Of a DNA stretch of 33,805 nt, positions 7,500 through 33,805 are shown in pieces. A program made the translations under genes and the position numbers. Below the pieces are notes generated by a model that saw nothing but the letters and a program-made list of their open reading frames with translations, had not been told where the DNA came from and did no database searches. The DNA lies in IMG/VR virus record IMGVR_UViG_3300032321_001491, positions 1 to 33,805 of that record. The stretch is one strand, 5' to 3'. Every line of letters starts with the position of its first letter. Position 1 is the first letter of the stretch. This DNA comes from a virus (Duplodnaviria; Caudoviricetes).

Positions 7500-7684
7500 T
7501 CCATCCCCTTGAATTCAGGAAAATATTTTTCAACAGCCCTTTCCCGACTAATCCCAAAATCAGCACACCACTGTTTAAGTAAACCATTGGCGATATCCCG
7601 CCATCTATCCCGTTCCGCCTCCAGCTGCTTGATTTCGTTAAAAGTCTCTTTGTCCATTTTAATTATTCTATTTTTATCCATCAC
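7496..7684 (-). CDS. Hypothetical protein, ~62 aa
   Basis: Coupled to both flanking ORFs; contains the LEAERDRWR coiled motif common in phage proteins. Confidence 0.7.
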   Translation of the reverse strand: MMDKNRIIKMDKETFNEIKQLEAERDRWRDIANGLLKQWCADFGISRERAVEKYFPEFKGME

Positions 7685-8238
7685 AATACTTTAAAGTCTA
7701 CATTAAGTATAAACCTAAATGGATTCTTAACAGGATTAGACGCAGCGTGGATTTGGCTACCATCAAAAATTACAGCACGACCTTTTTTCGGATAAACCTC
7801 ATCAGTGACTCTGTATGACTCATCAAAGAAATATGTGGGACCATCTGATGGGTTAATATAGTAAAGCAAAACTTTATGATTAACTGGATCTCCATTATCA
7901 TACTGAAGATCAATGTGAGGAACTTGATGCTCATAGTTCATCATTGGTGGATAGGGAAAAGTCAAATTCACTTTAGCCCTGATCAACTCAATTTTGCCAA
8001 ATTCAATTTCAAGTTTTTTTGTAAACTTCCTGATAACTGGAAGATGTGGTGATGCTTTATCTGATTCTGATTCGTAAAGATGATGTGACATCTGCAGCGG
8101 AGCATGTGTCCACCTTTGCGCTACCTCGCTTGAGAAGCGATGGCTACGAAACAAACGATAAGGAAAATTTTCAGTACTGACATATTCCTCAAAGTCCTCC
8201 TGTTCTTGTTGTGTAATGAAGTTGTCTATAATTTTCAT
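7681..8238 (-). CDS. 2OG-Fe(II) oxygenase (start MKIIDNF)
   Basis: PHID...LLYYINPSDGPT...HAASNP...R; the ORF-track N-terminal extension is the tRNA. Confidence 0.88.
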   Translation of the reverse strand: MKIIDNFITQQEQEDFEEYVSTENFPYRLFRSHRFSSEVAQRWTHAPLQMSHHLYESESDKASPHLPVIRKFTKKLEIEFGKIELIRAKVNLTFPYPPMMNYEHQVPHIDLQYDNGDPVNHKVLLYYINPSDGPTYFFDESYRVTDEVYPKKGRAVIFDGSQIHAASNPVKNPFRFILNVDFKVL

Positions 8239-8313
8239 GGCTGGCGAGGTAGGGCTTGAACCTACGACCCAGGGATTAACAGTCCCTTGCTCTGCCAACT
8301 GAGCTACTCGCCA
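8238..8313 (-). tRNA. tRNA-Asn (GTT), encoded CCA
   Basis: TGGCGAG acceptor, GCTCAGTTGGCAGAGC D arm, AGGGA-CTGTTAA-TCCCT, GTAGG-TTCAAGC-CCTAC, GCCA end; 76 nt. Confidence 0.96.
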
Positions 8314-8322
8314 TCGTACTAC

Positions 8323-8403
8323 TTACTTTAGCAGCAAAATAGCAATTGTGATTGCATGAAGCGTAAAATAAATTGCGTGTGTAATTTTATCTTGTTTTGA
8401 CAC
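8323..8403 (-). CDS. Small hydrophobic peptide, 26 aa (MSKQDKITHAIYFTLHAITIAILLLK); not in ORF track
   Basis: GTG start with GAAAGGA SD; fills the gap between oxygenase and tRNA. Confidence 0.55.
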   Translation of the reverse strand: MSKQDKITHAIYFTLHAITIAILLLK

Positions 8404-8405
8404 TT

Positions 8406-9074
8406 TTATCCTTTCTTAATTGGAGTATTCCAAACTTCAATTAAATTTTGTTTTTTTCTTTCTAAATCTTCTGGAGTATTGTAACTAGGAAATGTCCCTG
8501 GATTTTTTTCAATTGGGAGCATAAAGTTTGAATATGCGTAACGAATGCCAGATGTGACTTCCTTTACGCCATGCTCACAATCGGTATGAGCCCCATGAAT
8601 AACAAGATCTCCTGGCTGCACTGCATATTCTAAACCTAGCCTTGGGTAGTATGTTTCACCACCAGTAAATTCTCCAAAATAAACAACTAGCCCATAATGA
8701 ATAATACAGCAAGTATTCCATCTATCAAGCTGAGTCAACTCCTCTTCCATCCCCTCGCCTGGGCTATCTTGGTGCAAAAACATTCCACCATCTCCAGGTC
8801 TAATGACTTGAAGAGCCAGATTGGGATGAATTATATATTCTGGAGCAATCAAATCGCTTGCTGAATTCCATATGTCAATTAAATGAGGGATAAGCGGGGT
8901 AGTCTTATCTCTATACCAATCAACTTTTGCATACTGTTCTCTTAAATAAGTTTTTTCTTTTGTATATTCTTTAATAACTATATTAATTTGTTCAACTTTT
9001 TCTTTTGGTATAAAATTTTTATAAACAAAAACTTTATCTGCTAGTTTTGTAATGCCTGGGTGGTCAAAGAACAT
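8406..9074 (-). CDS. 2OG-Fe(II) oxygenase, prolyl-4-hydroxylase-like
   Basis: HQD...FTGGETYYP...PGDLVIH...HGVKEVTSGIRY. Confidence 0.9.
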   Translation of the reverse strand: MFFDHPGITKLADKVFVYKNFIPKEKVEQINIVIKEYTKEKTYLREQYAKVDWYRDKTTPLIPHLIDIWNSASDLIAPEYIIHPNLALQVIRPGDGGMFLHQDSPGEGMEEELTQLDRWNTCCIIHYGLVVYFGEFTGGETYYPRLGLEYAVQPGDLVIHGAHTDCEHGVKEVTSGIRYAYSNFMLPIEKNPGTFPSYNTPEDLERKKQNLIEVWNTPIKKG

Positions 9075-9086
9075 GTATGTATTATA

Positions 9087-9851
9087 TCAGATATCTATAT
9101 CTTCTGGTCTTAAGGCTCTACCTGTACGAGATTCGTGTTCTTTTATGTGATTATACAAATCAAAATCTAATTTATGTAAATCACAAATTTCATCATAAAA
9201 ATTATTAAATACACTCATTGAGTCTAGTTTAAATGGATTATCATTTACTTTTATTTCTTCATTAAGAATGATTGATTTATTTTTTAAATTTGTTAACTCT
9301 TCACTCATATCTCTCAAAAGATATTTTCTATTATCTAATGTTGATAATGTAAAATTATTTTTTTTAATTTCTTTTAATAAATCACTAAAAGACAAATTTC
9401 CTTTTTTAATAGACACACTGCTATCTTCATCTGATGTCCACTCAAGTGGTTGCGTTAAATAATCTGATTGAATGTTTGGTCTACCATCAAATCCAAGAGA
9501 AGATATTGATGGATTGTTGTATTTGCAATAATCATAAAGAACATCTTTAAAAGGTTTTCTCCAAGTAATAGGTCTTTGAGAAAAACTAAAAGAACTAATC
9601 AATCTATCTATTGGGTTCCTGACAATACTAAAACTTTTAATTCCTGGAAATTTTTCTATTGGTGTTGTGCCAAAGTGTCCTCTAATAAAATCATCATCTT
9701 TTCTTTTATTTAAAAAACAATCAAAAACTTCCTCACCCATCTGTTCAGCTGAGGTTAAATTTCTGACATACTTAATATCATTCTGATAATGATCCAATGC
9801 AGCCTCAACTGAGCTACCAGATGTTTTTGGAATATGGCAAAAGTAAATCAT
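9087..9851 (-). CDS. Sulfotransferase family 2 protein
   Basis: FCHIPKTSGSS (5'-PSB) and VRNPIDRLISSF (3'-PB) motifs. Confidence 0.85.
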   Translation of the reverse strand: MIYFCHIPKTSGSSVEAALDHYQNDIKYVRNLTSAEQMGEEVFDCFLNKRKDDDFIRGHFGTTPIEKFPGIKSFSIVRNPIDRLISSFSFSQRPITWRKPFKDVLYDYCKYNNPSISSLGFDGRPNIQSDYLTQPLEWTSDEDSSVSIKKGNLSFSDLLKEIKKNNFTLSTLDNRKYLLRDMSEELTNLKNKSIILNEEIKVNDNPFKLDSMSVFNNFYDEICDLHKLDFDLYNHIKEHESRTGRALRPEDIDI

Positions 9852-9853
9852 AG

Positions 9854-9925
9854 AGCCCCCTCTCGGACTTGAACCGAGGACCGCTTCATTACAAGTGAAG
9901 TGCTCTACCGCTGAGCTAAAGGGGC
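9854..9925 (-). tRNA. tRNA-Thr (TGT), no encoded CCA (CTA follows)
   Basis: GCCCCTT acceptor, CTTCA-CTTGTAA-TGAAG anticodon arm, CTCGG-TTCAAGT-CCGAG T arm. Confidence 0.95.
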
Positions 9926-9926
9926 G

Positions 9927-10523
9927 TTAAACATATTTAATTAAACTAGACAGAGCGTATTTTACCACACCAGTTTGAGCACCAATAATACCACCAATTA
10001 GTGTATATTTTTGTAATAAATTATCAATAATTCTCCTATTGTCAGCAGAGTGATATTCAATTAAAAACACTTCTGGCTCAAAGGTCATTGACTTAAGTAT
10101 TTCAATTTCAGCACCCTCGGTATCAATTTTTACAATATTTGCCTTAGGAAGTAGCTCTCCAGACATTACATCAACAATTTCAGTTTTATCAGTTTGCTCT
10201 ACGCCTTTGTAAAAAGAACATTCACCAATATTGTTAAGACCATAAAACATTTCTTTTTTTTCATTCTTAGATCCTACAGCTACATTTATTGCAAAGATAT
10301 TATCAATGTCTTTTATATTTTTCTTTAAGAGATCAAAATTATTTTTAATTGGTTCGTATGAATAGATAGTTGCGTTTTTCCATTTATTACTTGCCCAAAT
10401 TGCAAAACCGCCAATATTTCCACCAATATCTAGAATAATAGGCTTTGGGTGATTGTATGGAATATCGTATTCTCCATTGTTAATTTTTTCAATATGTTTC
10501 ACCATGTTTTCTGGTATTTCCAT
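9927..10523 (-). CDS. FkbM-family SAM methyltransferase
   Basis: ILDIGGNIG, YEP, KIDTEGAE, IEYH motifs. Confidence 0.9.
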   Translation of the reverse strand: MEIPENMVKHIEKINNGEYDIPYNHPKPIILDIGGNIGGFAIWASNKWKNATIYSYEPIKNNFDLLKKNIKDIDNIFAINVAVGSKNEKKEMFYGLNNIGECSFYKGVEQTDKTEIVDVMSGELLPKANIVKIDTEGAEIEILKSMTFEPEVFLIEYHSADNRRIIDNLLQKYTLIGGIIGAQTGVVKYALSSLIKYV

Positions 10524-10562
10524 TATTTACACCTCTCGTGTTTTTATTAATAAATTTTTATT

Positions 10563-11354
10563 TTAATTAATTATTCCATTATGTTTTTTTACAAAATTAT
10601 GAACTAAATAAAATTTAGGGTCATTTGGATGTTCTCTTAATAAAATATCTGTAACTCCAATTTTTTTTAGTTCTAACATTTTTTGTTTAATTTCTTCTTC
10701 TGTTCCAAAAATTGTCCAATTTTTTTGATGTTTCAAAGGAAGTCTATCTACAAATTCCTTTGCTTCCTCATGTGAATCTGACATTGTAACAGCAGCGCAA
10801 ACCATTCTATTTTTATTTTTCTTAAAATTATCAGGATTTTCTAAATAATTGTTCATCATTGATAAATTATAATTTGCAAAACAAGAAGCGGAGTTTAAAG
10901 TTTTTTCAGATGTTCCAGACATAATAATTTCAGGAATATCTTCTATAGAAAGCAATGAAAGCATTTTCTTCATCCATTCATAAGTATAATCAATTCTTTT
11001 CTCAACAGTATTAAAATATTCTTTATTAAGAATAATATTATTAACAGATGACTCCCAGGGCTGAAGGTCTCCAGCTACTATATTAAACATTATTCTATTT
11101 TTTTGAATTTGATTAAAAGCTTTATACATCATAGTAAAATATTCTGGAGAAAGAGCATAGGTTCGTATTGCTAAAGAATATTTAAATTTATGTTTTAAAT
11201 TTATTGTATTTGCACATTTTATCCAAACATCACTCAGTAAAGAATCATAAGTTAATAAAACAGAATAATAATGACATGCGTCTGCAATTTCTGCTATTTT
11301 TTTAAAATCATCTATACTTTCATTTGAGTGTGCATACATCCAATGAATTTTCAT
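10563..11354 (-). CDS. Luciferase-like (LLM class) flavin monooxygenase
   Basis: YYSVLL, LAIRTYALSP, RIMFNIVAG, IFGTEEEI...LKKIGVTDILL pattern. Confidence 0.75.
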   Translation of the reverse strand: MKIHWMYAHSNESIDDFKKIAEIADACHYYSVLLTYDSLLSDVWIKCANTINLKHKFKYSLAIRTYALSPEYFTMMYKAFNQIQKNRIMFNIVAGDLQPWESSVNNIILNKEYFNTVEKRIDYTYEWMKKMLSLLSIEDIPEIIMSGTSEKTLNSASCFANYNLSMMNNYLENPDNFKKNKNRMVCAAVTMSDSHEEAKEFVDRLPLKHQKNWTIFGTEEEIKQKMLELKKIGVTDILLREHPNDPKFYLVHNFVKKHNGIIN

Positions 11355-21190: not shown

Positions 21191-23569
21191 ATGTCAGATT
21201 TTAATATTTCATTCCCAATTGATATGATTAAGAGGGAACAACGCATTGTTGTAGGCATCGCTACAGCCGACAATGTTGATAAAGCTGGCGATATTGTGGA
21301 CTTTGAAGCATCCAAAGAAGCTTTTGCAAACTGGGGTGGAAACATCCGAGAGATGCATGCTCCTATTGCCGTTGGTAAGGCAATTAATTATGAGCCAGTC
21401 GTGCTTAAAGATAAAGATGGTGTATCTTATAATGCTTTTAAAGTTGAAGCTTATATTTCAAAAGGTGCAGAAGATACTTGGCAAAAAGTTCTTGATGGCA
21501 CACTTCGTTCTTTTTCTATTGGCGGTAAAGTAATTGAAAAATCTGAATCCGCAGATAAATTTTTTCATGGTAAGCCAGTTAATGTTATTAAAAAATATGT
21601 TCTTGGAGAGCTAAGCCTCGTTGATAACCCAGCAAACGCTTTGGCTATTATTGATATTATTAAAATGGATGGAGAAGGGTTGTTTAAGTATGCTCTTGAT
21701 TGCGACTTAGATTGCCAGTTAGCAAAGGCTAAACAACCGCTCAAAGACCCCAAAGGCGGGCTGACTGCTGCAGGTAGAAGGCATTTTAAACAAACTGAAG
21801 GTGCTAATCTTAAGCCAGGCGTTAAAGGTGCAGCCGACACTCCAGAAAAAATGCGCCGCAAAGGTTCATTCCTTACAAGATTTTTTACCAACCCGTCTGG
21901 TCCAATGAAAAAACCAAATGGTGAACCAACACGCCTTGCGCTTTCAGCAGCAGCATGGGGTGAACCTGTTCCTCAGAATGCATCAGATGCTGCAAAGCTT
22001 GCTGCTAAAGGCAGAAGACTTCTTGAGAGATATGCAAATACTAAAGAAAAAGCAGATTTTGAAAATTCATTTGAAGACGCTCTTCTTGAAGAAATTATTG
22101 ATCTTTTGAAAGATGATGATTGTGATTGTGGGTGTGGTGGTCTTGAAAAAGATGCATCAGTTACAACTGACAACGCTGAATCAAAAAATCCATCAAGAAA
22201 TGGAATCATTTCACCAACTGTTCCTCCATTCCCATCTGGTTCGCCAAAATTTAAACCAAAGAAAAAAATAAAAAAAGAAGGAAGTCCATGTTGGGATGGC
22301 TATCACCAAGAAGGTGAAAAGAAAGGTAAGAATGGAAATATGGTTCCAAACTGTGTTCCTGATAATACTAACAAAAAGGAGAAAGACATGAAAGGACAAG
22401 ATCTTATTAACAAAGCAACAGGTCTCGTTCCAACCCTCCAGGAGTTGTTGGCAAACACAGTTGTGTTTTATTTTGCAGCCCACAGAGCACATTGGAATGT
22501 TGAGGGCGTTGATTTTACAGAATACCACGAATTATTTGCAAAAATTTATGAAGATGCTTATGGATCAATTGACCCAATGGCTGAGCTTATTAGAAAAATG
22601 GGAGCATTCCCGCCATCGCTAGACGAATCAGATGACATGTCCAGTATTGAAGATGATTCAGCAACATCAGATTCTAGAGAACTTGCTATTGATCTTTATG
22701 TAAAAAATCATGGTTTGATCACAATGCTCAAAGCCGCATTTAATGTAGCAAACTCGGAAAATGAACAAGGTGTTGCTAATTTTATTGCAGAAAGAATTGA
22801 TATGCATCAAACATGGGATTGGCAATTGACAGCTTCTTTAAGAGCATCTGGTGTAGAAATCCCATCACTCATTGAAGATACTGATGAGACTGACATGGAA
22901 AATGCTGGGAGTATTATGAATTTGATTAATCAAGTTTTTGCTAATTCAACAAAATCATATGATTCAACACAAAATATTGAAGAATTTGATACAATTAGTA
23001 AAATGAACGAAAACGAAGAAGTTATTATTAAGCAAGACTCTGAATTGCAATTAAATAATACTTATGATAAGCTCTCTGACATGAATGAGCAACAAGTCAA
23101 TAAACTTAATCTTTTGAAGAAGTTTGTTGGTTGGTTGTTCCAAGATGTCGCAGAAACAACTTCAACTTCCGTTGAAGTAAGTGGAAACACACAGGAGGAA
23201 GAAATGGACATTAATGTTCTTAAAGATGCTCTGAGTGCTGTTGTTGATGAAAAACTGGCTAGTTTTGCTACTTCAATCAAGGAAGAAGTTGAAGCCTCTG
23301 TTCAGGAAAAAATTGAAGCAGTCGCAAAGGGTTTTGAGGTTCAGAGTTCTGAACTTCAACAAAAGCTGGAAACAGCAGAGTTGGCTCTCGCTGAGCAAAC
23401 AGAAAAAGTTGAGGCATTTGCCGCAGCTGGTGCTGTAAAAAAGAGCGTGGACCCAGAAGATGATGAGGAAGTAGCAGAGGAAGCACTAGCTAAGTCTGCA
23501 CCTACTTCATTCTGGAGAAATACATATCTGCCACAGGAGTTAATCAACTCCCTAGGTTATAGGTCATAA
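21191..23569 (+). CDS. Prohead protease fused to DUF6321-like domain, Dps/ferritin domain and C-terminal scaffold
   Basis: N-terminal IREMH...FSIGG...ELSLVDNPAN; KDPKGGLTAAGR; HWNVEG..F...HELF...YE...D..AE.I (Dps); acidic coiled-coil C-terminus; lies just before the capsid gene. Confidence 0.88.
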   Translation: MSDFNISFPIDMIKREQRIVVGIATADNVDKAGDIVDFEASKEAFANWGGNIREMHAPIAVGKAINYEPVVLKDKDGVSYNAFKVEAYISKGAEDTWQKVLDGTLRSFSIGGKVIEKSESADKFFHGKPVNVIKKYVLGELSLVDNPANALAIIDIIKMDGEGLFKYALDCDLDCQLAKAKQPLKDPKGGLTAAGRRHFKQTEGANLKPGVKGAADTPEKMRRKGSFLTRFFTNPSGPMKKPNGEPTRLALSAAAWGEPVPQNASDAAKLAAKGRRLLERYANTKEKADFENSFEDALLEEIIDLLKDDDCDCGCGGLEKDASVTTDNAESKNPSRNGIISPTVPPFPSGSPKFKPKKKIKKEGSPCWDGYHQEGEKKGKNGNMVPNCVPDNTNKKEKDMKGQDLINKATGLVPTLQELLANTVVFYFAAHRAHWNVEGVDFTEYHELFAKIYEDAYGSIDPMAELIRKMGAFPPSLDESDDMSSIEDDSATSDSRELAIDLYVKNHGLITMLKAAFNVANSENEQGVANFIAERIDMHQTWDWQLTASLRASGVEIPSLIEDTDETDMENAGSIMNLINQVFANSTKSYDSTQNIEEFDTISKMNENEEVIIKQDSELQLNNTYDKLSDMNEQQVNKLNLLKKFVGWLFQDVAETTSTSVEVSGNTQEEEMDINVLKDALSAVVDEKLASFATSIKEEVEASVQEKIEAVAKGFEVQSSELQQKLETAELALAEQTEKVEAFAAAGAVKKSVDPEDDEEVAEEALAKSAPTSFWRNTYLPQELINSLGYRS
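23045..23073 (+). promoter_or_regulatory. Internal promoter inside the protease gene
   Basis: TTGCAA-N17-TAAGCT with TG extension; in-frame ATG 7 nt later (23081). Confidence 0.55.
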
Positions 23570-25797: not shown

Positions 25798-26130
25798 ATG
25801 GCACAGCTATTACCAAAGAATTTCTACACAGGGAACTCAACTGCTGCAAATGTTTATACTGTAGCAAATACAGCAAATTATTATTCAATTATTAAAAATA
25901 TTAACATTTGCAATACAAGCAATGCTGCAAATGCTACAGCAAGCATTCATTTGCTTACAGATGGTGCAGCACCGTCAAATGATAATAAAATTATTAGCAA
26001 CGCAATTATCATTCTTTCAGATGTGCTTTACTACAACACATCAATCGTGGTTCCTGCTAATACAAAAATCTATGTGTCATCAAGCTCAAGTTCGTTGACA
26101 TTTTCAATAAGTGGAGTAGAATATGCCTAA
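25798..26130 (+). CDS. Putative virion structural protein
   Basis: YTV...IIKNINICN...ISGVE pattern. Confidence 0.75.
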   Translation: MAQLLPKNFYTGNSTAANVYTVANTANYYSIIKNINICNTSNAANATASIHLLTDGAAPSNDNKIISNAIIILSDVLYYNTSIVVPANTKIYVSSSSSSLTFSISGVEYA

Positions 26131-28135
26131 TTTAGTTTACGATCCGTCATTTAATAATTTTGTTGTTCAAGTAGATACTGTTCAAACACTTACTAACAAA
26201 ACTTTAGTAGCTCCTGCTCTTGGCACACCAATTTCTTTAACTCTCACCAATGCCACGGGGCTTCCGATTAGTACAGGCGTAACTGGTCTTGGAGCAAATA
26301 TTGCTACATTCCTTGGTACACCAACATCAGCTAATCTCCGTAGTGCGGTCACTGATGAAACAGGAACTGGGTCTATTGTGTTTAGTGACTCACCAACTTT
26401 AGTTACCCCTGTATTGGGCGTAGCAAGCGCTACAAGCGTTAATAAACTAACAATCACAGCACCAGCCACTTCTGCTACTTTAACTTTGGCTAACGGTAGC
26501 TCTTTTACCACTTCTGGTGCTTTTGATACTGTTCTGACAGCAACTGCAAATACTTCGGTAACATTGCCTACAACAGGAACTCTTGCTACAACAGCAAACC
26601 TGTCTCAATTTGCTTCAACAACAAGCTCACAGCTTGCTGGTATTATTTCTGATGAAACAGGCACTGGTAACTTGGTGTTCTCAAACTCGCCAACTCTTGT
26701 AACGCCAATACTTGGGACACCGCAATCTGTGAATTTGACCAACGCTACATCACTCCCGATCTCTACTGGTGTTAGTGGTCTTGGCGCTAATGTCGCTACA
26801 TTCCTTGCAACCCCAAGCTCTGCCAACTTAATCAATGTTGTAACAGATGAGAGTGGAACAGGGACTCTTATATTCAATACAAGCCCAAATATTAACACAT
26901 CGGTTACAACATCAAGCGCATCTTTTGATTTGATCAATACAACCGCAACAACTGTCAACTTTGCTGGCGCTGCTACAACATTGTCTATTGGTAATGCCTC
27001 TGGTAATACTTCTTTAAATGGTAATGTCACGGTTGGTGGAAACTTAACTGTTTCTGGTACTAACACTATTATTAATGCCAATACAATAACAGTATCTGAC
27101 AAAAATATTGAACTGGGAACAATTGCATCACCAACTAATACAACTGCTGATGGCGGTGGAATAACTCTAAGAGGAACAACTGATAAAACAATTACTTGGT
27201 CAAATTCATTAACATCCTGGACATCATCTGAAGACTTCAGTATTGCTACTGGAAAATCATATGAAGTTAACGGTACAGCAGTTCTATCAGCAACAACTCT
27301 CGGTTCAGGAGTTACTGGTTCTTCTCTAACATCATTTGGGACAAGCCCATCTTTAACAACTCCTGTTATTTCTTCGGGTGGTGCGACATTTAACGGTTCA
27401 ACATCTGGTACAACAGTTCTTAAGGCAAACGCAACAGCTGGAACTACAACTATTACCTTGCCAGCAGTAACGGGAACTGCTATAACTACTGGAGATACTG
27501 GAACTGTTACATCCACAATGATTCTTGATGGAACAATTGCCAATGCTGATATTTCAACAAGCGCCGCAATTGCCATTTCAAAACTAGCAGCAGGAACTGC
27601 TGGTCAAGTAATTCTTGCTAATGCGACTGGGGTTGCAACATATGTAACACCTTCTGGAGATGTTTCCTGGGATAGTTCAGGCAATGTGCAGATTACTGCA
27701 AATACAATTGTTAACGCAGATATAAACTCAGCAGCAGCAATTGCCTATAGCAAACTTTCTTTGGCAAATACTATTGTTAATGCTGATATTTCAACAGCAG
27801 CTGCAATTGATTTAGGAAAAATTGCTGATGTTTCAACGAACGCTAATACCGCAACTGCTTATACACTTGTTTTAGCTGACAAAAATAAAGTAGTTGAGCT
27901 TAATAACGCAGCAGCAATTGCTCTTACAGTACCAGCTGATAATACAGTTGCTTATGGAACAGGAACTCAAATTACTCTTCTTCAAACAGGTGCTGGTCAA
28001 GTAACTATCGCTGGCGCTTCTGGTGTTACTGTTAACGCAACTCCTGGTTTAAAGATGCGAGCACAATGGTCATCTGTTACACTATTAAAGAGAGCCGCTA
28101 ATACATGGGTGGCTATGGGAGACTTGAGCACATAA
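26123..28135 (+). CDS. Fiber protein (tail or head fiber) with internal repeats
   Basis: T/S/A/G-rich; duplicated ~65-aa block (LGTP..LTNAT.LPISTGV.GLGAN..TFL.TP.SANL...VTDE.GTG); three I.NADI...AAI..K repeats; C-terminal YTLVLAD...W...GDL domain. Confidence 0.85.
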   Translation: MPNLVYDPSFNNFVVQVDTVQTLTNKTLVAPALGTPISLTLTNATGLPISTGVTGLGANIATFLGTPTSANLRSAVTDETGTGSIVFSDSPTLVTPVLGVASATSVNKLTITAPATSATLTLANGSSFTTSGAFDTVLTATANTSVTLPTTGTLATTANLSQFASTTSSQLAGIISDETGTGNLVFSNSPTLVTPILGTPQSVNLTNATSLPISTGVSGLGANVATFLATPSSANLINVVTDESGTGTLIFNTSPNINTSVTTSSASFDLINTTATTVNFAGAATTLSIGNASGNTSLNGNVTVGGNLTVSGTNTIINANTITVSDKNIELGTIASPTNTTADGGGITLRGTTDKTITWSNSLTSWTSSEDFSIATGKSYEVNGTAVLSATTLGSGVTGSSLTSFGTSPSLTTPVISSGGATFNGSTSGTTVLKANATAGTTTITLPAVTGTAITTGDTGTVTSTMILDGTIANADISTSAAIAISKLAAGTAGQVILANATGVATYVTPSGDVSWDSSGNVQITANTIVNADINSAAAIAYSKLSLANTIVNADISTAAAIDLGKIADVSTNANTATAYTLVLADKNKVVELNNAAAIALTVPADNTVAYGTGTQITLLQTGAGQVTIAGASGVTVNATPGLKMRAQWSSVTLLKRAANTWVAMGDLST

Positions 28136-28136
28136 T

Positions 28137-28511
28137 ATGAAATTTTTTGGTGGAGGAAATCAAAACTTAAAGTTTTTAAGAAAAAAAGCTAAGCCAACAA
28201 TTGCTGAAGGCACTGCTCAAGCAACTGCTAATACAACTATTACCAATGCTGGTTTTAAAGTTGGAACTGTAGGAACAACTGCTACTCAAAACAGTGGTTT
28301 GAATGGTGTTGTTTTACCAGCCGTTACCGATACGACAGTTACTCCATTAGGAACTGCTATCAACTATAACATTGGAGTTTTTTCACCACCAACATTTTTT
28401 GGTCCTCCGTCATTCTTTTCGCCTCCTGCATTTTTCTCACCACCTGGATTTTTTTCACCTCCTGGGTTCTTCGCCCCTCCTGGGTTCTTCGCCCCTCCAG
28501 CATTTAAGTAA
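28137..28511 (+). CDS. PASTA-like domain protein with seven C-terminal F-[SGA]-P-P-x-F repeats
   Basis: P....G....A...I..AGF.VG.V........G.V.......GT.I pattern; repeats at 28380-28505. Confidence 0.8.
   Translation: MKFFGGGNQNLKFLRKKAKPTIAEGTAQATANTTITNAGFKVGTVGTTATQNSGLNGVVLPAVTDTTVTPLGTAINYNIGVFSPPTFFGPPSFFSPPAFFSPPGFFSPPGFFAPPGFFAPPAFK
28380..28505 (+). repeat. 7 x 18-bp coding tandem repeat
   Basis: FSPPTF FGPPSF FSPPAF FSPPGF FSPPGF FAPPGF FAPPAF. Confidence 0.95.
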
Positions 28512-28522
28512 TTGCTGCAACT

Positions 28523-29317
28523 ATGAAGTTTAAAGAACTTTACCCCAAGGTGCTTGTCTATCAAGACCTACTGCCAGAGCCAGATCGTTTGTATCAAATA
28601 GTAAAGGATTCCGAGCGTGACGCTGATGGAAGGTTTTATTTGAGAAAGTGGGATAAATGGTCTGTTTTTGGGACATACTCTCAAGAAAAGCATGAAGATA
28701 GTGAGCATTATGAACCAAGAGAATTTGGTGAAAGATATGACGATGAAAAATATCTAGCAGATTGTGTAATTGAAGCTTACTCTAAAGCAATTAATCACTA
28801 TGTAGATAAACATAATGTGTCCGTTCCAGAAGGTGGTAGATTGATGACATCTTCTTTTTCAAAATACGACAGTGATTTAGATGTTTTAAAAAATGGTATG
28901 ACAATGCCGTACCACACTGATTTCATTATTTCAGAAAGAGCAATGCCAGGAAATAAATTTTTTCTTACATGCACTACATATATCAATGATGATTATGATG
29001 GTGGAGATATTTGTTTTTATATCAATGGTGATTTTATTAATTATAAACCAAAAGCTGGCGATATTCTTGTATTCCCATCTGGACTTCCTTATTATCACGG
29101 AGTAAAAACTATTAAAAATGGAAACAAATTTTTTATAAGAAACTTTATACAGTACCCATTTAATGGGACAAAAGAGTGGTTAGCAAAGCAAAGAGAGTTT
29201 GGAGCGCCAAGGTGGGCGGACAAAGAAAGGGATAGGCTTGCTTATGAAAATCCAAGAAATATGTTATATGTTTATAACAATGAAATTATTTCTTATGATG
29301 ATCTTCTTAAGAAGTGA
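28523..29317 (+). CDS. 2OG-Fe(II) oxygenase, prolyl-4-hydroxylase-like
   Basis: YHTD...YINDDYDGGDI...KPKAGDILVFPS...YHGV. Confidence 0.92.
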   Translation: MKFKELYPKVLVYQDLLPEPDRLYQIVKDSERDADGRFYLRKWDKWSVFGTYSQEKHEDSEHYEPREFGERYDDEKYLADCVIEAYSKAINHYVDKHNVSVPEGGRLMTSSFSKYDSDLDVLKNGMTMPYHTDFIISERAMPGNKFFLTCTTYINDDYDGGDICFYINGDFINYKPKAGDILVFPSGLPYYHGVKTIKNGNKFFIRNFIQYPFNGTKEWLAKQREFGAPRWADKERDRLAYENPRNMLYVYNNEIISYDDLLKK

Positions 29318-29972
29318 ACTCTTCAATTGTATAAAAAGAAGGTATAACCCATCGCTCTCCAGAGAGAACTGGAGTAACTCCATGAAGGTATTCAATATCT
29401 CCTGGGTGAAATACAGCTAGTCCAGGTTTTGGAGAAACTTTAATCCCGTGTTTTGGATAAAATAATTCTCCACCAATAAAATTATCATTGAGATAAAATA
29501 ATGAGTTAATGTCGTAATCAATAAAGGCATTTGGTCTTCCATCTTGAACTTGTTTATCGGCATGTGGAACTTGAAAATCTCCAGCTCTCCAGCAAACAAT
29601 AACTGGTGGTCTTTTTCTTAAGCGAACTTTAAATTTTTTTTCCAAAACTAATTGCATTTTTTCAATATAATAATCAATTAAATTAAATATATTAATATCT
29701 AATTCTTTAATTAACTCTGCACTACATGTTCTGTTATACCATAAATCAGAACTGTATTTTGAAACACCATCTTCATGTTCTTGAGATTCATTTGAATTAT
29801 CCCATTTATTTATTTTTTTAACAAAATTACTTAATTTTTCTAAATCTTCTGGTGTAATAAACTCATCTATATTTCCCATATTTTCTAATGAGTTACCAAA
29901 ATACCCAGGGGGTACTCTCCAAGGTTGTTCCTTATTTAAATCATCATAACTTAATGGGTATTTGTTGTTCAT
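29307..29972 (-). CDS. 2OG-Fe(II) oxygenase, prolyl-4-hydroxylase-like
   Basis: PHAD...YLNDNFIGGELFYP...LHGVTPVLSGERW. Confidence 0.92.
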   Translation of the reverse strand: MNNKYPLSYDDLNKEQPWRVPPGYFGNSLENMGNIDEFITPEDLEKLSNFVKKINKWDNSNESQEHEDGVSKYSSDLWYNRTCSAELIKELDINIFNLIDYYIEKMQLVLEKKFKVRLRKRPPVIVCWRAGDFQVPHADKQVQDGRPNAFIDYDINSLFYLNDNFIGGELFYPKHGIKVSPKPGLAVFHPGDIEYLHGVTPVLSGERWVIPSFYTIEEFTS

Positions 29973-30024
29973 GTTACCGTTCTTTATGTTATAATCAGTC
30001 TATCACAATAGACAAAAGGATTTT

Positions 30025-30777
30025 ATGCAAGCACAGTATATTTTTGATCCAAGGGTTGGAATTATCCTCTATAAAGATGCAGTGCCAAACCCCCATGAAA
30101 TTATAGATGAACTTGAAGAAACTATCGGTAATAGCACAACAGAATATTACAAATGGTCATCAGCGACTGTTGGCAATCTTGAAACAATTAATGGCTACAG
30201 AGAATGTTCTGATTGCAAAATAAACGCAAGTTTAGCAAATAATGCACCAGATTCTTTTTCTGGGATAAAAAATGTATACGAAAAAACTACAGAGTCATTA
30301 AGAGAATGCCTTTATGACTATGAATCTAGATTCAACATAAAAATGGATTTTATGGAAAGCGTTAATTATGTGAAGTATGGTGCTGGTAATTTCTTCAAAC
30401 CACACGCAGATCATGGTTTTTCATACACCGCAACAGTATCTTCTGTTATGTATTTAAATGACAATTATGAAGGTGGTGAATTATACTTTCCTACATTTAA
30501 TTTTAAAATTAAACCAAAAGCTGGAGATGTAATTATGTTTCCATCAACTTTTATTTACACTCATGGCTCTGATGTTGTTACTTCTGGCGTTAAGTATTCA
30601 GCAGTAACTATGTTTGATTATAATGAAAGAAACCATAAAGGTTTTCAGTATGGTTTTAACTTAGATGGCTCCCCAGCCGACCCAGATGCTGGTCGGGGTA
30701 TCCGATTCCCTAACGGAAGATTCTTGTCACAACTTGTTCCTTTAGAACAGGGTTATGACTTTTCAAGGTATAGTTAG
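30025..30777 (+). CDS. 2OG-Fe(II) oxygenase, prolyl-4-hydroxylase-like
   Basis: PHAD...YLNDNYEGGELYF...THGS...GVKY. Confidence 0.92.
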   Translation: MQAQYIFDPRVGIILYKDAVPNPHEIIDELEETIGNSTTEYYKWSSATVGNLETINGYRECSDCKINASLANNAPDSFSGIKNVYEKTTESLRECLYDYESRFNIKMDFMESVNYVKYGAGNFFKPHADHGFSYTATVSSVMYLNDNYEGGELYFPTFNFKIKPKAGDVIMFPSTFIYTHGSDVVTSGVKYSAVTMFDYNERNHKGFQYGFNLDGSPADPDAGRGIRFPNGRFLSQLVPLEQGYDFSRYS

Positions 30778-30780
30778 TAT

Positions 30781-31497
30781 ATGACAAAAATTACGCTCTC
30801 TAGAACATTGCAAACTCCAGCCCTAATTAAACAATCACGACTTAAGCGTGATTGGATGGATGCCACTTATAACAAACATGCGTATCAATGTACTCCTGTA
30901 ACAACAGCAAATGTTAATGGGTGGGAGATGCTGCTGCCAGAAGATGTTACTGTTATTTGGGATGGAGGCAATTCTCCTGCGCAAATCATTAACGGTGGTG
31001 TTCACAATGGTTGGAATTTTGCTCATTCAAATATTAATGGGATGATTTCTTTTGCTACTGGTTGGGTAATTAATACAGAAAGTCCTTATCATCTTTGGAC
31101 AACTGGATCACCAAATTATTATGTTGATGGAGCTGTGCCGATGACAGCGACTATTCCTAGTGATTGGTGGGCGGATGAGGTTCAAACGAATTGGGTTATT
31201 ACAAAAGTAAATGAGCCAGTCACTTTTAAGAAAGGTGAGCCATTTTTGTTCTTTACTATATATGATCCAAACTTACTGCCAAGTGTAGAATTTGAAACTA
31301 TTAATAGATGGGATTTCCCAGAGATCGTTGCTCAAAGAGCAGAGTATAATGATTTGAAGATTAAAAATTCCAAAGAAAATCCCTGGACATGGCTGAAGGG
31401 ACTGAGGACTGGTCGTGGCGCTAAGGGTGAGCAAATTGGTCCAAAATATCCAGGATTGCCAAAACTTAAGGAGCCAGAAATTAATGATGCAATATAA
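30781..31497 (+). CDS. DUF6065-like protein
   Basis: KRDWMD...HAY.C.P...AN..GW, TGSPN, I.SDW, F.KGEPF pattern. Confidence 0.7.
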   Translation: MTKITLSRTLQTPALIKQSRLKRDWMDATYNKHAYQCTPVTTANVNGWEMLLPEDVTVIWDGGNSPAQIINGGVHNGWNFAHSNINGMISFATGWVINTESPYHLWTTGSPNYYVDGAVPMTATIPSDWWADEVQTNWVITKVNEPVTFKKGEPFLFFTIYDPNLLPSVEFETINRWDFPEIVAQRAEYNDLKIKNSKENPWTWLKGLRTGRGAKGEQIGPKYPGLPKLKEPEINDAI

Positions 31498-32341
31498 TGA
31501 TGTAAAGGCAAATCACCTTGGTGGCGGTGTTGTCCTTTTTGAAAATACTTTTGATATGGATTGGGATTGGATTTTTAATTTTTTTAAAAAAAATGTTGAT
31601 CAAGAATCTGAAGGGATGTATACCCCAGTAAAACACCCGCATACTGGTGAAGAAGCTTATGTGAATAGAAGTGGGTATTTCTTTGATAAGAAATCCATTG
31701 AGGAAATGCCAAGTCGGAGTATGGCTTTGCATCGTGATCCAGATATGCAAGCAATTAAAACAATGGCTTTTATTGAAGAAGTTAAATATCAATGTTTATT
31801 AAAATATATGGAAATTTTCCCTCTTGTTTACAAATGCATTTGGTGGAAATCAAAAGGTCATATTTCTTATTACAAGAAGGGTATGTATCTCGGTCCCCAC
31901 TCCGATGTGAGCAGTGATTACATTTATGGTGTGCCAGAGCCAGCAAATCAGTTAGCGTTGAAAAATGTTCTTGGCACGATTGTTTATGTAACTGATGATT
32001 TTATTGGTGGTGAGCATTATTTTGATTATCTTGATATTAAATATAAGCCTAAGAAGGGAGATATTTTGATGTTCCCTGCAAACTACATGGCTGCTCACCG
32101 TGTTCTCCCAGTTGAAGATGGAGATCGTTATGCATATCTTGGGTGGTATTGTCATGGGAGTCCTAGTAAGGAGCTCAATGAGATTGTATTTGATCCACTA
32201 AAAGACCCAGACGCAGCGATTAATCGTGAAAATCTTTATATGCCTTTTTTAAGGCAAGACTTTCAAAAATATCTGCTATCACAAGGGCATGATGAAAAAT
32301 CATACGCTTATTCAATTACTGTAAACATGGAACAGGTTTGA
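31484..32341 (+). CDS. 2OG-Fe(II) oxygenase, prolyl-4-hydroxylase-like
   Basis: PHSD...DDFIGGEHYF...AHRVLPVEDGDRY. Confidence 0.9.
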   Translation: MMQYNDVKANHLGGGVVLFENTFDMDWDWIFNFFKKNVDQESEGMYTPVKHPHTGEEAYVNRSGYFFDKKSIEEMPSRSMALHRDPDMQAIKTMAFIEEVKYQCLLKYMEIFPLVYKCIWWKSKGHISYYKKGMYLGPHSDVSSDYIYGVPEPANQLALKNVLGTIVYVTDDFIGGEHYFDYLDIKYKPKKGDILMFPANYMAAHRVLPVEDGDRYAYLGWYCHGSPSKELNEIVFDPLKDPDAAINRENLYMPFLRQDFQKYLLSQGHDEKSYAYSITVNMEQV

Positions 32342-32353
32342 TATAATAACACT

Positions 32354-33031
32354 ATGCTTGTAATTGACAACTATATCAGAAACCCTGAACTGCTTGCGGA
32401 GATAGAAAATTCACCTACCCTCTTTCCAGAATCAATGGGCTCTGAGAATAGAATCGCTACTGAGCTTAATTCATATCACCATGAACAAGCAAGTTGTTTT
32501 GCTCCATATATGTTTTGGGATGGTTGGTGGAAATCACCAGCAAACACTCTTGCTAAAAAAATAGTTCAATCGGTTTGGGAGACCAATTTGCCTTTTGATA
32601 AAGAAGACATTTGTGGGTTTGAATACTGGACAAGAACATTTAATCCTGGTCAATATCTTGATGTTCATGTTGATGAGGATACTTTTTTATATGCAAAAGA
32701 AAAAGTTTTTCACGGTCCAGTTATTGGGTGTGTTTACTATCCACATACAAATGATGTGGTTGGTGGATTTTTAGAGCTTCATCCGAACGCTGTTGAAGAA
32801 AATCTTAAGTATGCCTTGGAATCAGAAAATATTCGTAATAACATTTCACCACTTGAAGATCGTGAAAGAATTGCTTGCAAACCAAACAGATTAATTGTAT
32901 TTGATGCTGGTCATACTGTTCATAATACAACTCCTCCTATTTCTGGGGTTAGGCGAGTTATGGTTATAAATGTTTGGCATAAAAATAGTCCACCATCTGC
33001 TCTTCAAACTGGTGAGTTTTTTTATGAGTAA
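32354..33031 (+). CDS. 2OG-Fe(II) oxygenase
   Basis: EYW...HVD...GGFL...NRLIVFD...HNT...RR; leaderless after TGaTATAAT. Confidence 0.85.
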   Translation: MLVIDNYIRNPELLAEIENSPTLFPESMGSENRIATELNSYHHEQASCFAPYMFWDGWWKSPANTLAKKIVQSVWETNLPFDKEDICGFEYWTRTFNPGQYLDVHVDEDTFLYAKEKVFHGPVIGCVYYPHTNDVVGGFLELHPNAVEENLKYALESENIRNNISPLEDRERIACKPNRLIVFDAGHTVHNTTPPISGVRRVMVINVWHKNSPPSALQTGEFFYE

Positions 33032-33629
33032 TTTTGAGTTTCAATCATTATTAAATATAGGTATATATAAAAAAAAATTAAATTATATTGATAATAATAA
33101 AATTTATGAAGAAATTAAAAAATATTCTAAAAGTTTAGATGAGAGTTTTAATTCAAACAAAAATCATTCATATTTTGAAGATCAAACATATCCATTTGAT
33201 GGACCAGAGTCTAATAAATTAATGAACTGTCTTTCTGCAGAAGTAAGTTCAGCTATTGGTCGTGAAATGTTGTTAAATGAAATATGGACTTTGACTCTTA
33301 AAAACGGTGAATCCGTTGGCTACCATTCGCATAAGTCAAGCAATCATTCAAACCCCGCCGAACACTACTCAATTGCTTACTATGTTAACACTCCAATTGG
33401 TAGTTCAGATATTCAGTTTAGTGTCACAGCTTGTAATACATTGGAAAGTCTAGTATCTGTTAAAGCAGAAGATGGATTGTTGGTTATTTTTAATTCTTTT
33501 ATACCTCATATGACAAATAGGCATAAAAATGTAGATGAAAATCGTGTTGTTATTAGCGCTAATTTTTCTCCCAAAAACCCAATATCAATTTCAAATCAAG
33601 ACTGGACAGCGTATTGGGATAAGAGGTGA
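33024..33629 (+). CDS. Putative 2OG-Fe(II) oxygenase, HxH type (start MSNFE)
   Basis: W...HSH...YYV...GLLVIFNSFIPH...RVVISAN. Confidence 0.82.
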   Translation: MSNFEFQSLLNIGIYKKKLNYIDNNKIYEEIKKYSKSLDESFNSNKNHSYFEDQTYPFDGPESNKLMNCLSAEVSSAIGREMLLNEIWTLTLKNGESVGYHSHKSSNHSNPAEHYSIAYYVNTPIGSSDIQFSVTACNTLESLVSVKAEDGLLVIFNSFIPHMTNRHKNVDENRVVISANFSPKNPISISNQDWTAYWDKR

Positions 33630-33649
33630 TCTTATGATAATATATACAT

Positions 33650-33805
33650 ATGACAATCACTAAAGATTCTATTAAAGGGATTACTGGAAGAACAAGGCTC
33701 AATGATATTGAGGCGATTCTGGATGTTCCAGAAGTTAACGCAGATGATATAAGCCATATTGTAAAAACAAATGCTGATTCTATTTTTACTTGGGATTATT
33801 CATCG
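33650..33805 (+). CDS. Truncated CDS, probable ferritin-like (AurF-type diiron) protein N-terminus
   Basis: MTITKDSIKGITGRTRLNDIEAILDVPEVNADDISHIVKTNADSIFTWDY; resembles, from memory, N-termini of actinobacterial ferritin-like proteins; leaderless after TGaTAATAT. Confidence 0.5.
   Translation, partial: MTITKDSIKGITGRTRLNDIEAILDVPEVNADDISHIVKTNADSIFTWDYSS

What the first reader, a model, noticed from the sequence alone, without database searches (positions are those of the whole stretch)
28137..33805. Candidate phage peptide-modification system: PASTA-like protein with (F-x-P-P-x-F)7 tail followed by six 2OG-Fe(II) oxygenases, DUF6065-like and ferritin-like genes
Seen: a 124-aa ORF starting 1 nt after the fiber stop ends in FSPPTF-FGPPSF-FSPPAF-FSPPGF-FSPPGF-FAPPGF-FAPPAF-K. 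Synonymous codon differences between repeats imply protein-level selection. 11 nt later begins a run of divergent oxygenases (four prolyl-4-hydroxylase-like HxD...H, one further HxD type, one HxH type), a DUF6065-like gene and a probable diiron enzyme. Known: prolyl 4-hydroxylases act on Pro-rich repeats (collagen X-P-G, extensin Ser-Pro; Chlorella virus PBCV-1 encodes one); PASTA domains bind peptidoglycan fragments; RiPP clusters pair a repetitive precursor with adjacent tailoring enzymes. Inference: the repeat is the substrate for multiple Pro/Phe hydroxylations, perhaps then glycosylated, sulfated or methylated by the other enzymes in this window. The product could be a modified adhesion or receptor-binding tip, or a RiPP-like multicore peptide.
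Basis: partly seen in the sequence, partly recalled or inferred. Interest (0 to 1): 0.85.

Follow-up and report, generated by a model that had tools for sequence, protein, structure and literature searches.

The report
Phage fibre-tip Pro-Phe rod with hydroxylases
An uncultured lake phage encodes, right behind a fibre gene, a small PASTA-like protein ending in seven Phe-x-Pro-Pro-x-Phe repeats and then a bank of iron oxygenases that accompanies such repeats in related phages, so the enzymes likely hydroxylate the repeat's prolines on what is predicted to be a swappable fibre tip, although no chemistry has been shown.

Summary
The 124-aa ORF has a divergent PASTA head and (FxPPxF)7-K. Six 2OG-Fe(II) oxygenases follow (one on the minus strand), plus DUF6065 (dUTPase fold) and a cut-off AurF-like gene. 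The block fills a hypervariable slot behind the capsid genes. Of 29 informative sister-phage loci, 28 have neither repeat nor DUF6065, one has both, none is discordant. 60 of 65 informative DUF6065 loci have a Pro/aromatic tract upstream. The near-invariant core is two oxygenases, nearest to solved prolyl 4- and prolyl 3-hydroxylases, plus DUF6065. Best reading (0.55): a fibre-tip appendage whose Pro-Pro pairs are hydroxylated. A RiPP is unlikely, and the window's glycosyltransferase is unlinked. No chemistry is shown, and the loci are redundant. This scan reported the same system on many other DNAs; I found no paper on it. New side lead, in relatives and not in this window: 20 of 34 PASTA-type repeat genes need a +1 step at CGG(A/T) that restores a Gly, and three large relatives encode a tRNA-Gly with TCCG in an enlarged anticodon arm.

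The parts
26123..28135 (+). 670-aa fibre-like virion protein; its C-terminal ~108-aa domain precedes nearly all repeat genes
   Evidence: PHROG virion/minor tail hits; 78/78 short and 32/47 long tract ORFs follow a gene ending in this domain
28137..28511 (+). 124-aa repeat protein: basic N-terminal peptide, PASTA-like head, Pro/Phe tract, FK end
28191..28379 (+). divergent PASTA-like domain
   Evidence: profile search of 1.84 billion proteins: 34 of 40 hits scanned are PASTA proteins above Pfam cut-off, the other 6 are family members; reciprocal test; below Pfam cut-off itself
28380..28508 (+). (F-x-P-P-x-F)7 tract plus terminal Lys; 14 Pro, three Pro-Pro-Gly
   Evidence: 50 of 52 distinct tract proteins that stop within 12 aa of the tract end in x-F-K
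28523..29317 (+). oxygenase O1, accessory (21 of 77 loci)
   Evidence: PF13640; HTD..H; only a weak PDB hit, P3H1 E=0.025
29307..29972 (-). oxygenase O2, core (76 of 77 loci); nearest solved relative prolyl 3-hydroxylase 1, then prolyl 4-hydroxylases
30025..30777 (+). oxygenase O3, core (77 of 77 loci); nearest solved relatives prolyl 4-hydroxylases
30781..31497 (+). DUF6065 protein with a dUTPase-like fold, probably not a dUTPase
   Evidence: PF19541; model pLDDT 84; Foldseek top hits all dUTPases at 6-16% identity
31484..32341 (+). oxygenase O4, accessory (45 of 77 loci); start at 31484 or 31487
   Evidence: PF13640; no PDB hit with its profile
32354..33031 (+). oxygenase O5, accessory (33 of 77 loci)
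   Evidence: PF13640 below cut-off; HVD..H
33024..33629 (+). oxygenase O6, HxH type, accessory (16 of 77 loci)
   Evidence: PF13759; weak TIGR02466
33650..33805 (+). first 52 codons of an AurF-like ferritin-fold diiron gene, cut by the contig end
   Evidence: 52/52 identical to the 360-aa gene in L184

Best explanation
The 124-aa protein is likely a swappable tip appendage of the phage fibre encoded just upstream, and the two core oxygenases (O3 and O2) likely hydroxylate the Pro-Pro pairs of its Phe-rich tail, with the dUTPase-fold DUF6065 protein as a predicted helper. Shown: gene anatomy, PASTA homology, intact iron-binding motifs, co-inheritance of tract, O2, O3 and DUF6065, and exchange of the whole block against other tip-plus-enzyme blocks in sister phages. 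Inferred: virion location; docking on the fibre's C-terminal domain; a polyproline-II rod; 4-hydroxylation of the second Pro by O3 and, more weakly, 3-hydroxylation of the first by O2; a role in host-surface binding or tip stability. Further sugar or sulfate additions would be optional and lineage-specific.
For: Sister phages fetched by capsid protein (81-97% identity): of 80 loci, 29 had 8 kb or more downstream; 28 have neither tract nor DUF6065, 1 has both, 0 are discordant. Their slot holds Gly-rich, FN3, Collar or Ig tips with halogenases, other oxygenases and sulfotransferases. Whole records: 0 of 12 sisters (3 at least 90% complete) have DUF6065 over cut-off, an O3 orthologue or a tract. 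Forward: 61 of 76 repeat loci have a P4H-like gene within 2.5 kb. Reverse: 60 of 80 DUF6065 loci have a tract within 7 kb, 5 lack one, 15 are too short. The link holds across repeat type (FxPPxF, PPFF, PPYF, PPHF) and carrier (PASTA, FN3), and hexamer tracts fall in two separate parts of the DUF6065 tree. O3 and O2 occur in 77 and 76 of 77 loci; their nearest solved relatives are peptidyl-prolyl hydroxylases. A PF11397 glycosyltransferase follows some tract genes; I recall this family as the Skp1-hydroxyproline GlcNAc transferases. 78 of 78 short tract ORFs follow the same fibre end.
Against: No activity, product or virion data. The loci are redundant and related (53 distinct arrays, 67 labelled DUF6065 sequences), so the counts are not independent events. 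One lineage (L195, L198, L200, L202) keeps O2, O3 and DUF6065 with no tract in 7-10 kb upstream, and none in the 105-kb, 50%-complete record G001. 12 of 76 repeat loci have no oxygenase directly behind the tract. The PDB matches cover only the catalytic core at E about 1e-8, and PKHD-type and lysyl hydroxylases follow closely. Six or more enzymes exceed what two prolines need. PF11397 is in only 3 of 10 cassette-bearing records and also in tract-less L254. In chlorovirus PBCV-1 no hydroxyproline was detected in purified virions despite an active P4H (PMC7019647, passage).
Confidence: 0.55

Rival explanations
1. The tract is an unmodified structural or adhesive rod. The enzymes travel with it only because they share a host-adaptation island, and they act on host surface polymers, host proteins or small molecules.
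For: Every allele of this island carries some oxygenase or halogenase whatever its tip. O2 is inverted relative to the repeat gene. A tract-less lineage keeps the core. Iyer et al. proposed secondary-metabolite roles for cyanophage dioxygenase arrays (PMC2938197 section 12).
Against: Orthologues of O1-O5 occur in only 1 of 79 capsid-fetched loci counted, the one with the tract. The core persists beside the tract across different carriers and phage groups.
Confidence: 0.2
2. The enzymes modify virion proteins, but mainly other ones (the fibre or collagen-like segments), or they act on the tract's Phe/Tyr/His residues rather than its prolines (beta- or ring-hydroxylation, cross-linking).
For: L198 has a Gly-Pro-Thr collagen-like fibre in front of the core and no tract. 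Aromatic pairs are as conserved as Pro-Pro. Accessory HxH, JmjC and AurF-like enzymes are not prolyl-hydroxylase-like.
Against: The two core enzymes are nearest to prolyl hydroxylases, and I saw no collagen repeat in the window's fibre (no Pfam hit).
Confidence: 0.17
3. RiPP-like system: the repeats are cut into modified hexapeptides that are released as a bioactive product.
For: A short precursor-like ORF with tandem cores lies beside many tailoring enzymes.
Against: No peptidase or transporter family among the cassette genes. The tract is fused to FN3, Hint, S74 and Cys-rich domains, varies between 4- and 6-residue periods with no cleavage motif, and is tied to one fibre end.
Confidence: 0.05

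Closest known systems
Chlorovirus PBCV-1 prolyl 4-hydroxylase and Pro-containing peptides (Eriksson et al. 1999, seen only as cited in PMC7019647 and PMC9301287; PDB 5c5t matched, its PBCV-1 label taken from earlier scan notes)
   Same: A virus-encoded small P4H-type enzyme with Pro-rich viral peptides as candidate substrates.
   Different: One enzyme in a eukaryotic virus, not a linked cassette. Here several enzymes, DUF6065 and a Phe-rich tract sit behind a bacteriophage fibre. No Hyp was found in PBCV-1 virions.
Tandem dioxygenase array of Synechococcus phage Syn9 and predicted bacterial collagen-like / tail-collar hydroxylation operons (Iyer et al. 2010, PMC2938197, passages and section 12 read)
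   Same: Phage arrays of divergent 2OG-Fe(II) enzymes; the idea that a co-encoded repeat or fibre protein is hydroxylated and then further modified.
   Different: They assigned the phage arrays to small-molecule synthesis. In what I read there is no Pro/Phe tract, PASTA head or DUF6065 (supplement not seen).
Collagen prolyl 4- and 3-hydroxylation of (Gly-Pro-Pro)n (PMC3973637, passages)
   Same: Adjacent prolines in G-P-P carry 3-Hyp and 4-Hyp and give +16 Da ladders; O3 and O2 are nearest to P4H and P3H1.
   Different: The tract lacks Gly at every third residue, so it is not a collagen triple helix; the enzyme similarity is remote.
PASTA domain (PF03793)
   Same: Remote but reciprocal profile homology over about 56 positions.
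   Different: A single divergent copy below the Pfam cut-off, in a phage protein; ligand binding untested.

Membership tests
PASTA domain | Score above Pfam PF03793 cut-off | tested here: not met
   No hit for the window protein; best short relative L246 17.5 bits vs 23.2
PASTA domain | Reciprocal profile homology | tested here: met
   34 of 40 scanned hits are PASTA proteins; a 15-domain PASTA profile scores 31 of 38 heads above the best of 760 shuffles, hhalign 81%, E 1e-5
PASTA domain | PASTA fold | tested here: inconclusive
   AF2 model mean pLDDT 51; only a helix at 28-37
PASTA domain | Muropeptide or lipid II binding | not testable with these tools
   Needs a binding assay
2OG-Fe(II) oxygenases | HxD/E..H iron triad and Pfam match | tested here: met
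   O5 below cut-off, O6 has HxH
Peptidyl-prolyl hydroxylases (P4H/P3H) | Nearest solved relatives are prolyl hydroxylases | tested here: inconclusive
   True for O3 (P4H, 4e-8) and O2 (P3H1 2e-8, P4H 1e-6) over the core only; O1 weak, O4 none, O5 and O6 not searched
Peptidyl-prolyl hydroxylases (P4H/P3H) | Hydroxylation of peptide-bound Pro | not testable with these tools
   Needs an enzyme assay
DUF6065 (PF19541) | Score above cut-off | tested here: met
   128.9 bits vs 26.6
Trimeric dUTPase | dUTPase fold | tested here: met
   Foldseek probability 1.0, TM by target mostly about 0.6
Trimeric dUTPase | Catalytic motif-3 Asp (motif recalled, not from a call) | tested here: not met
   Family consensus TAxIPS aligns with GIIDxD of the paralogous c8 family; no sequence hit to PDB dUTPases
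AurF-like diiron oxygenase | Two ExxH motifs and PF11583 cut-off | tested here: inconclusive
   EARH and ESRH present in L184; 28 bits vs 29.6
RiPP cluster | Peptidase, transporter or leader-recognition gene with the precursor | tested here: not met
   None among cassette genes; rest of genome not available
Collagen triple helix | Gly at every third residue | tested here: not met
   Gly in 89 of 500 and 310 of 500 units at the two positions; PPFF tracts lack it

The most novel reading that the evidence does not exclude
Lake actinophages write a collagen-like 3-Hyp/4-Hyp code on a Phe-rich polyproline rod at the fibre tip, using a dUTPase-fold pseudoenzyme as helper. In most PASTA-type lineages the rod can be made only through a four-base CGG(A/U) glycine step, read by a phage tRNA-Gly with a UCCG anticodon in an enlarged arm: natural quadruplet decoding gating a virion protein.
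Probability: 0.3. Interest if true: 0.92.

Novelty: new variant of a known kind. Interest (0 to 1): 0.66.

Why it matters
Prolyl 4-hydroxylase genes are among the commonest accessory genes of aquatic viruses (62% of Baltic water stations), and their use is called cryptic (PMC9301287, passages). This cassette names a short, synthesisable candidate substrate and narrows the enzymes to a core pair, so the question becomes a simple assay. If true, bacteriophages would tailor their fibre tips with hydroxyproline chemistry known mainly from eukaryotes. The side lead, a phage tRNA matched to four-base Gly steps in relatives, would be a natural case of something mostly pursued by engineering.

Tried and rejected
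AF2 on the 124-aa protein: low confidence; not used for a fold search. ESM Atlas: no usable hit for the repeat protein, only DUF6065 clusters for DUF6065. Complex prediction of the fibre C-terminal trimer with residues 1-84 of the repeat protein: no answer, score 0.03, no evidence either way. The wide structural search was busy and not repeated. Promoter and terminator scans were at chance level (26 vs 24.7; TGnTAnAAT 8 vs 10.8). Sequencing runs: no RNA holder listed; DNA contigs of a second study carry a ~96%-identical copy over 27500-32528. Pattern scan of 185,579 prokaryote genomes gave 28 loci; only L158 and L163 had cassette enzymes and look like phage contigs in bins; most others looked like antisense reads of Lys-rich repeats. 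Distant cellular DUF6065 genes (8 of 12 loci) have neither tract nor P4H nearby. No cultured phage has a DUF6065 match; O3 matches cyanophage genes at about 31% only. One search translated five PASTA loci on the wrong strand; it was redone as and only one search is used. The Hint class was under-counted and is not used. Literature: DUF6065 0 papers; searches found no description of this repeat-plus-oxygenase cassette; one search listed mostly engineering papers and reviews on four-base codons (listing only). The library lacks most subscription papers, and no supplements were read.
Full report
Context. The window is a whole 33.8-kb virus record with RNR, portal, protease and capsid genes. The capsid protein's nearest cultured matches are Streptomyces phages at 54%, and the named runs that hold the region are freshwater metagenomes, so an actinobacterial lake host is likely (inference). 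The finding lies after the capsid gene and four small virion genes. In two sisters with a short island (L150, L154) it is followed by genes that I read from sequence as neck and tail genes, so the fibre may be a head or neck fibre rather than a tail fibre.

Observation. All coordinates hold. The tract has seven units with mixed codons, and shuffled windows give at most one unit. The + strand is the coding strand: the antisense frame is closed upstream in 50 of 50 distinct arrays. Six oxygenases keep their iron ligands; the second is inverted. The diiron gene is cut after 52 codons but is complete in L184, where a methyltransferase-like ORF follows.

The repeat protein. Pfam does not call its head. 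A profile of the head searched against 1.84 billion proteins returned 136 hits; of the 40 I scanned, 34 are PASTA proteins and 6 are family members. A PASTA profile built from 15 bacterial domains scores 31 of 38 heads above the best of 760 shuffles. The tract is a module: in relatives it sits behind PASTA or FN3 domains and ends the protein or precedes a Hint-like, S74 or Cys-rich domain. A second form is (PPFF/PPYF/PPHF)n. Of 52 distinct proteins that stop within 12 residues of the tract, 50 end in x-F-K, and the S74 fusion in L009 has FK just before the chaperone. 78 of 78 short and 32 of 47 long tract ORFs, redundant copies included, directly follow a gene ending in the same domain as the window's fibre; that domain also precedes Gly-rich tips in repeat-less phages. 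I infer a swappable tip. Docking is not shown.

Linkage, tested three ways. Forward: of 76 loci fetched with the repeat protein (the best 80 of 223 matches), 61 have a P4H-like gene within 2.5 kb behind a tract, 12 do not and 3 are too short; three of the 12 lie on contigs whose other tract copy has the cassette (contig names). Reverse: of 80 loci fetched with DUF6065, 60 have a tract within 7 kb upstream, 5 do not, 15 are too short. Unbiased: of 80 loci fetched with the capsid protein, 29 reach 8 kb downstream; 28 have neither tract nor DUF6065, one has both. In 12 whole sister records there is no DUF6065 over cut-off, no O3 orthologue and no tract; in 10 records chosen for having the tract or DUF6065, all have DUF6065 and 9 have a tract. 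The sisters fill the slot with other tips and other enzymes. These counts include near-identical contigs and shared ancestry. The exceptions are L254 and one lineage (L195, L198, L200, L202) nested among tract-bearers on a FastTree DUF6065 tree; its records are 18% and 50% complete and begin just upstream, so a more distant copy is not excluded.

The enzymes. In 77 loci with 3 kb on both sides of DUF6065, O3 is in 77, O2 in 76, O4 in 45, O5 in 33, O1 in 21 and O6 in 16. The O3 profile's best solved matches are prolyl 4-hydroxylases; the O2 profile's best is prolyl 3-hydroxylase 1, closely followed by P4H. These matches are remote and cover the core fold only. In tendon collagen, (GPP)n carries both 3-Hyp and 4-Hyp (PMC3973637, passages), which suggests one enzyme per proline of the Pro-Pro pair; this is a hypothesis. 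DUF6065 folds like a dUTPase but lacks the recalled catalytic Asp motif; a helper role is a guess. PF11397 glycosyltransferases follow some tract genes but occur in only 3 of 10 cassette-bearing records. The window's GT4 belongs to the sister-phage core, not to the cassette.

Against. Nothing here shows chemistry. PBCV-1 has an active P4H, yet no hydroxyproline was found in its virions (PMC7019647, passage). Iyer et al. read phage dioxygenase arrays as small-molecule pathways, while proposing collagen-like or tail-collar substrates for related bacterial operons (PMC2938197, passages and section 12; supplement not seen).

Side lead in relatives. Among distinct genes that follow the fibre domain, 14 PASTA-type and 28 long ones are in frame (the window among them), 21 need one +1 step and 2 were unresolved. 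20 of the 21 have CGGA or CGGT in the permitted stretch, at three different sites, each where a Gly fits the family alignment. In-frame CGG is rare (22 of 54,438 codons). Reading CGGA as one Gly opens L232 from start to stop. A Logan-derived protein (P0018) shows the same off-frame start, so this is not peculiar to one database. Six of 14 other distinct +1 junctions also have CGG nearby. Three of five large relatives searched had tRNA genes; each has a low-scoring tRNA-Gly whose anticodon arm is 19 nt instead of 17 and holds T-TCCG-A, the complement of CGGA, with compensatory stem changes. Against a strict rule: in-frame CGGA or CGGT remains inside 11 positions of long ORFs in those loci, and once in the window; two records with shifted genes showed no tRNA (71% and 50% complete). 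The window's own gene does not need the step. A word search of the scan's notes found nothing on it.

Novelty. Searches found no paper on this cassette; the library omits most subscription journals. The scan itself has reported the same system on many other DNAs; those notes agree but are not independent evidence. Viral prolyl hydroxylases and phage dioxygenase arrays are known, so this is a new variant of a known kind with a directly testable substrate. Verdict: real; best explanation 0.55; interest 0.66.

Noticed in passing
L023, L027, L035, L067, L009, L026, L040, L004, L192, L201, L221, L232, L234, L237, L257, L194, L029, L028, L222 (first 9-38 codons of the repeat gene; e.g. L232:8082-8085): 20 of 34 distinct PASTA-type repeat genes are split by one extra C before a Gly codon (CGGA or CGGT), at three sites; a +1 step restores the protein. 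The window's copy is in frame.
   Followed up: partly
L305:1501-1576, L306:1501-1575, L307:1498-1573 (G017, G015, G021): Phage tRNA-Gly with a 19-nt anticodon arm containing T-TCCG-A, complement of CGGA, with compensatory stem changes; a candidate natural four-base decoder.
   Followed up: partly
L008, L036, L187, L190, L192, L009: Other genes also show +1 junctions with CGG nearby (6 of 14 distinct +1 junctions).
   Followed up: partly
window 28500-28511 and relatives: 50 of 52 tract proteins that end at the tract finish with x-F-K whatever the repeat type or carrier; L009 has FK directly before an S74 chaperone. Either a relic of a lost self-cleaving domain or a needed C-terminal signal.
   Followed up: partly
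L078, L079, L091, L107, L127, L144 (slot after the capsid genes): Alternative alleles of the same island pair other putative tip proteins (Gly-rich or Ig in some) with tryptophan halogenases, other oxygenases and sulfotransferases: a second candidate virion-tailoring system.
   Followed up: no
L041-L059, L009, L222: A PF11397 glycosyltransferase, often fused to or beside DUF6171, follows tract genes.
   Followed up: partly
window 7681-11354 (-): A second enzyme cluster: two 2OG oxygenases, a sulfotransferase, an FkbM methyltransferase and a luciferase-like monooxygenase, interleaved with tRNA-Asn (8238-8313) and tRNA-Thr (9853-9925); no link to the tract shown.
   Followed up: partly
window 21191-23569: The prohead protease is fused to DUF6321 and a ferritin-like domain.
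   Followed up: no
L158, L163, L275, L276, L278: Tract-plus-enzyme cassettes lie on contigs filed under unrelated bacterial MAGs; probably phage contigs binned by error.
   Followed up: no
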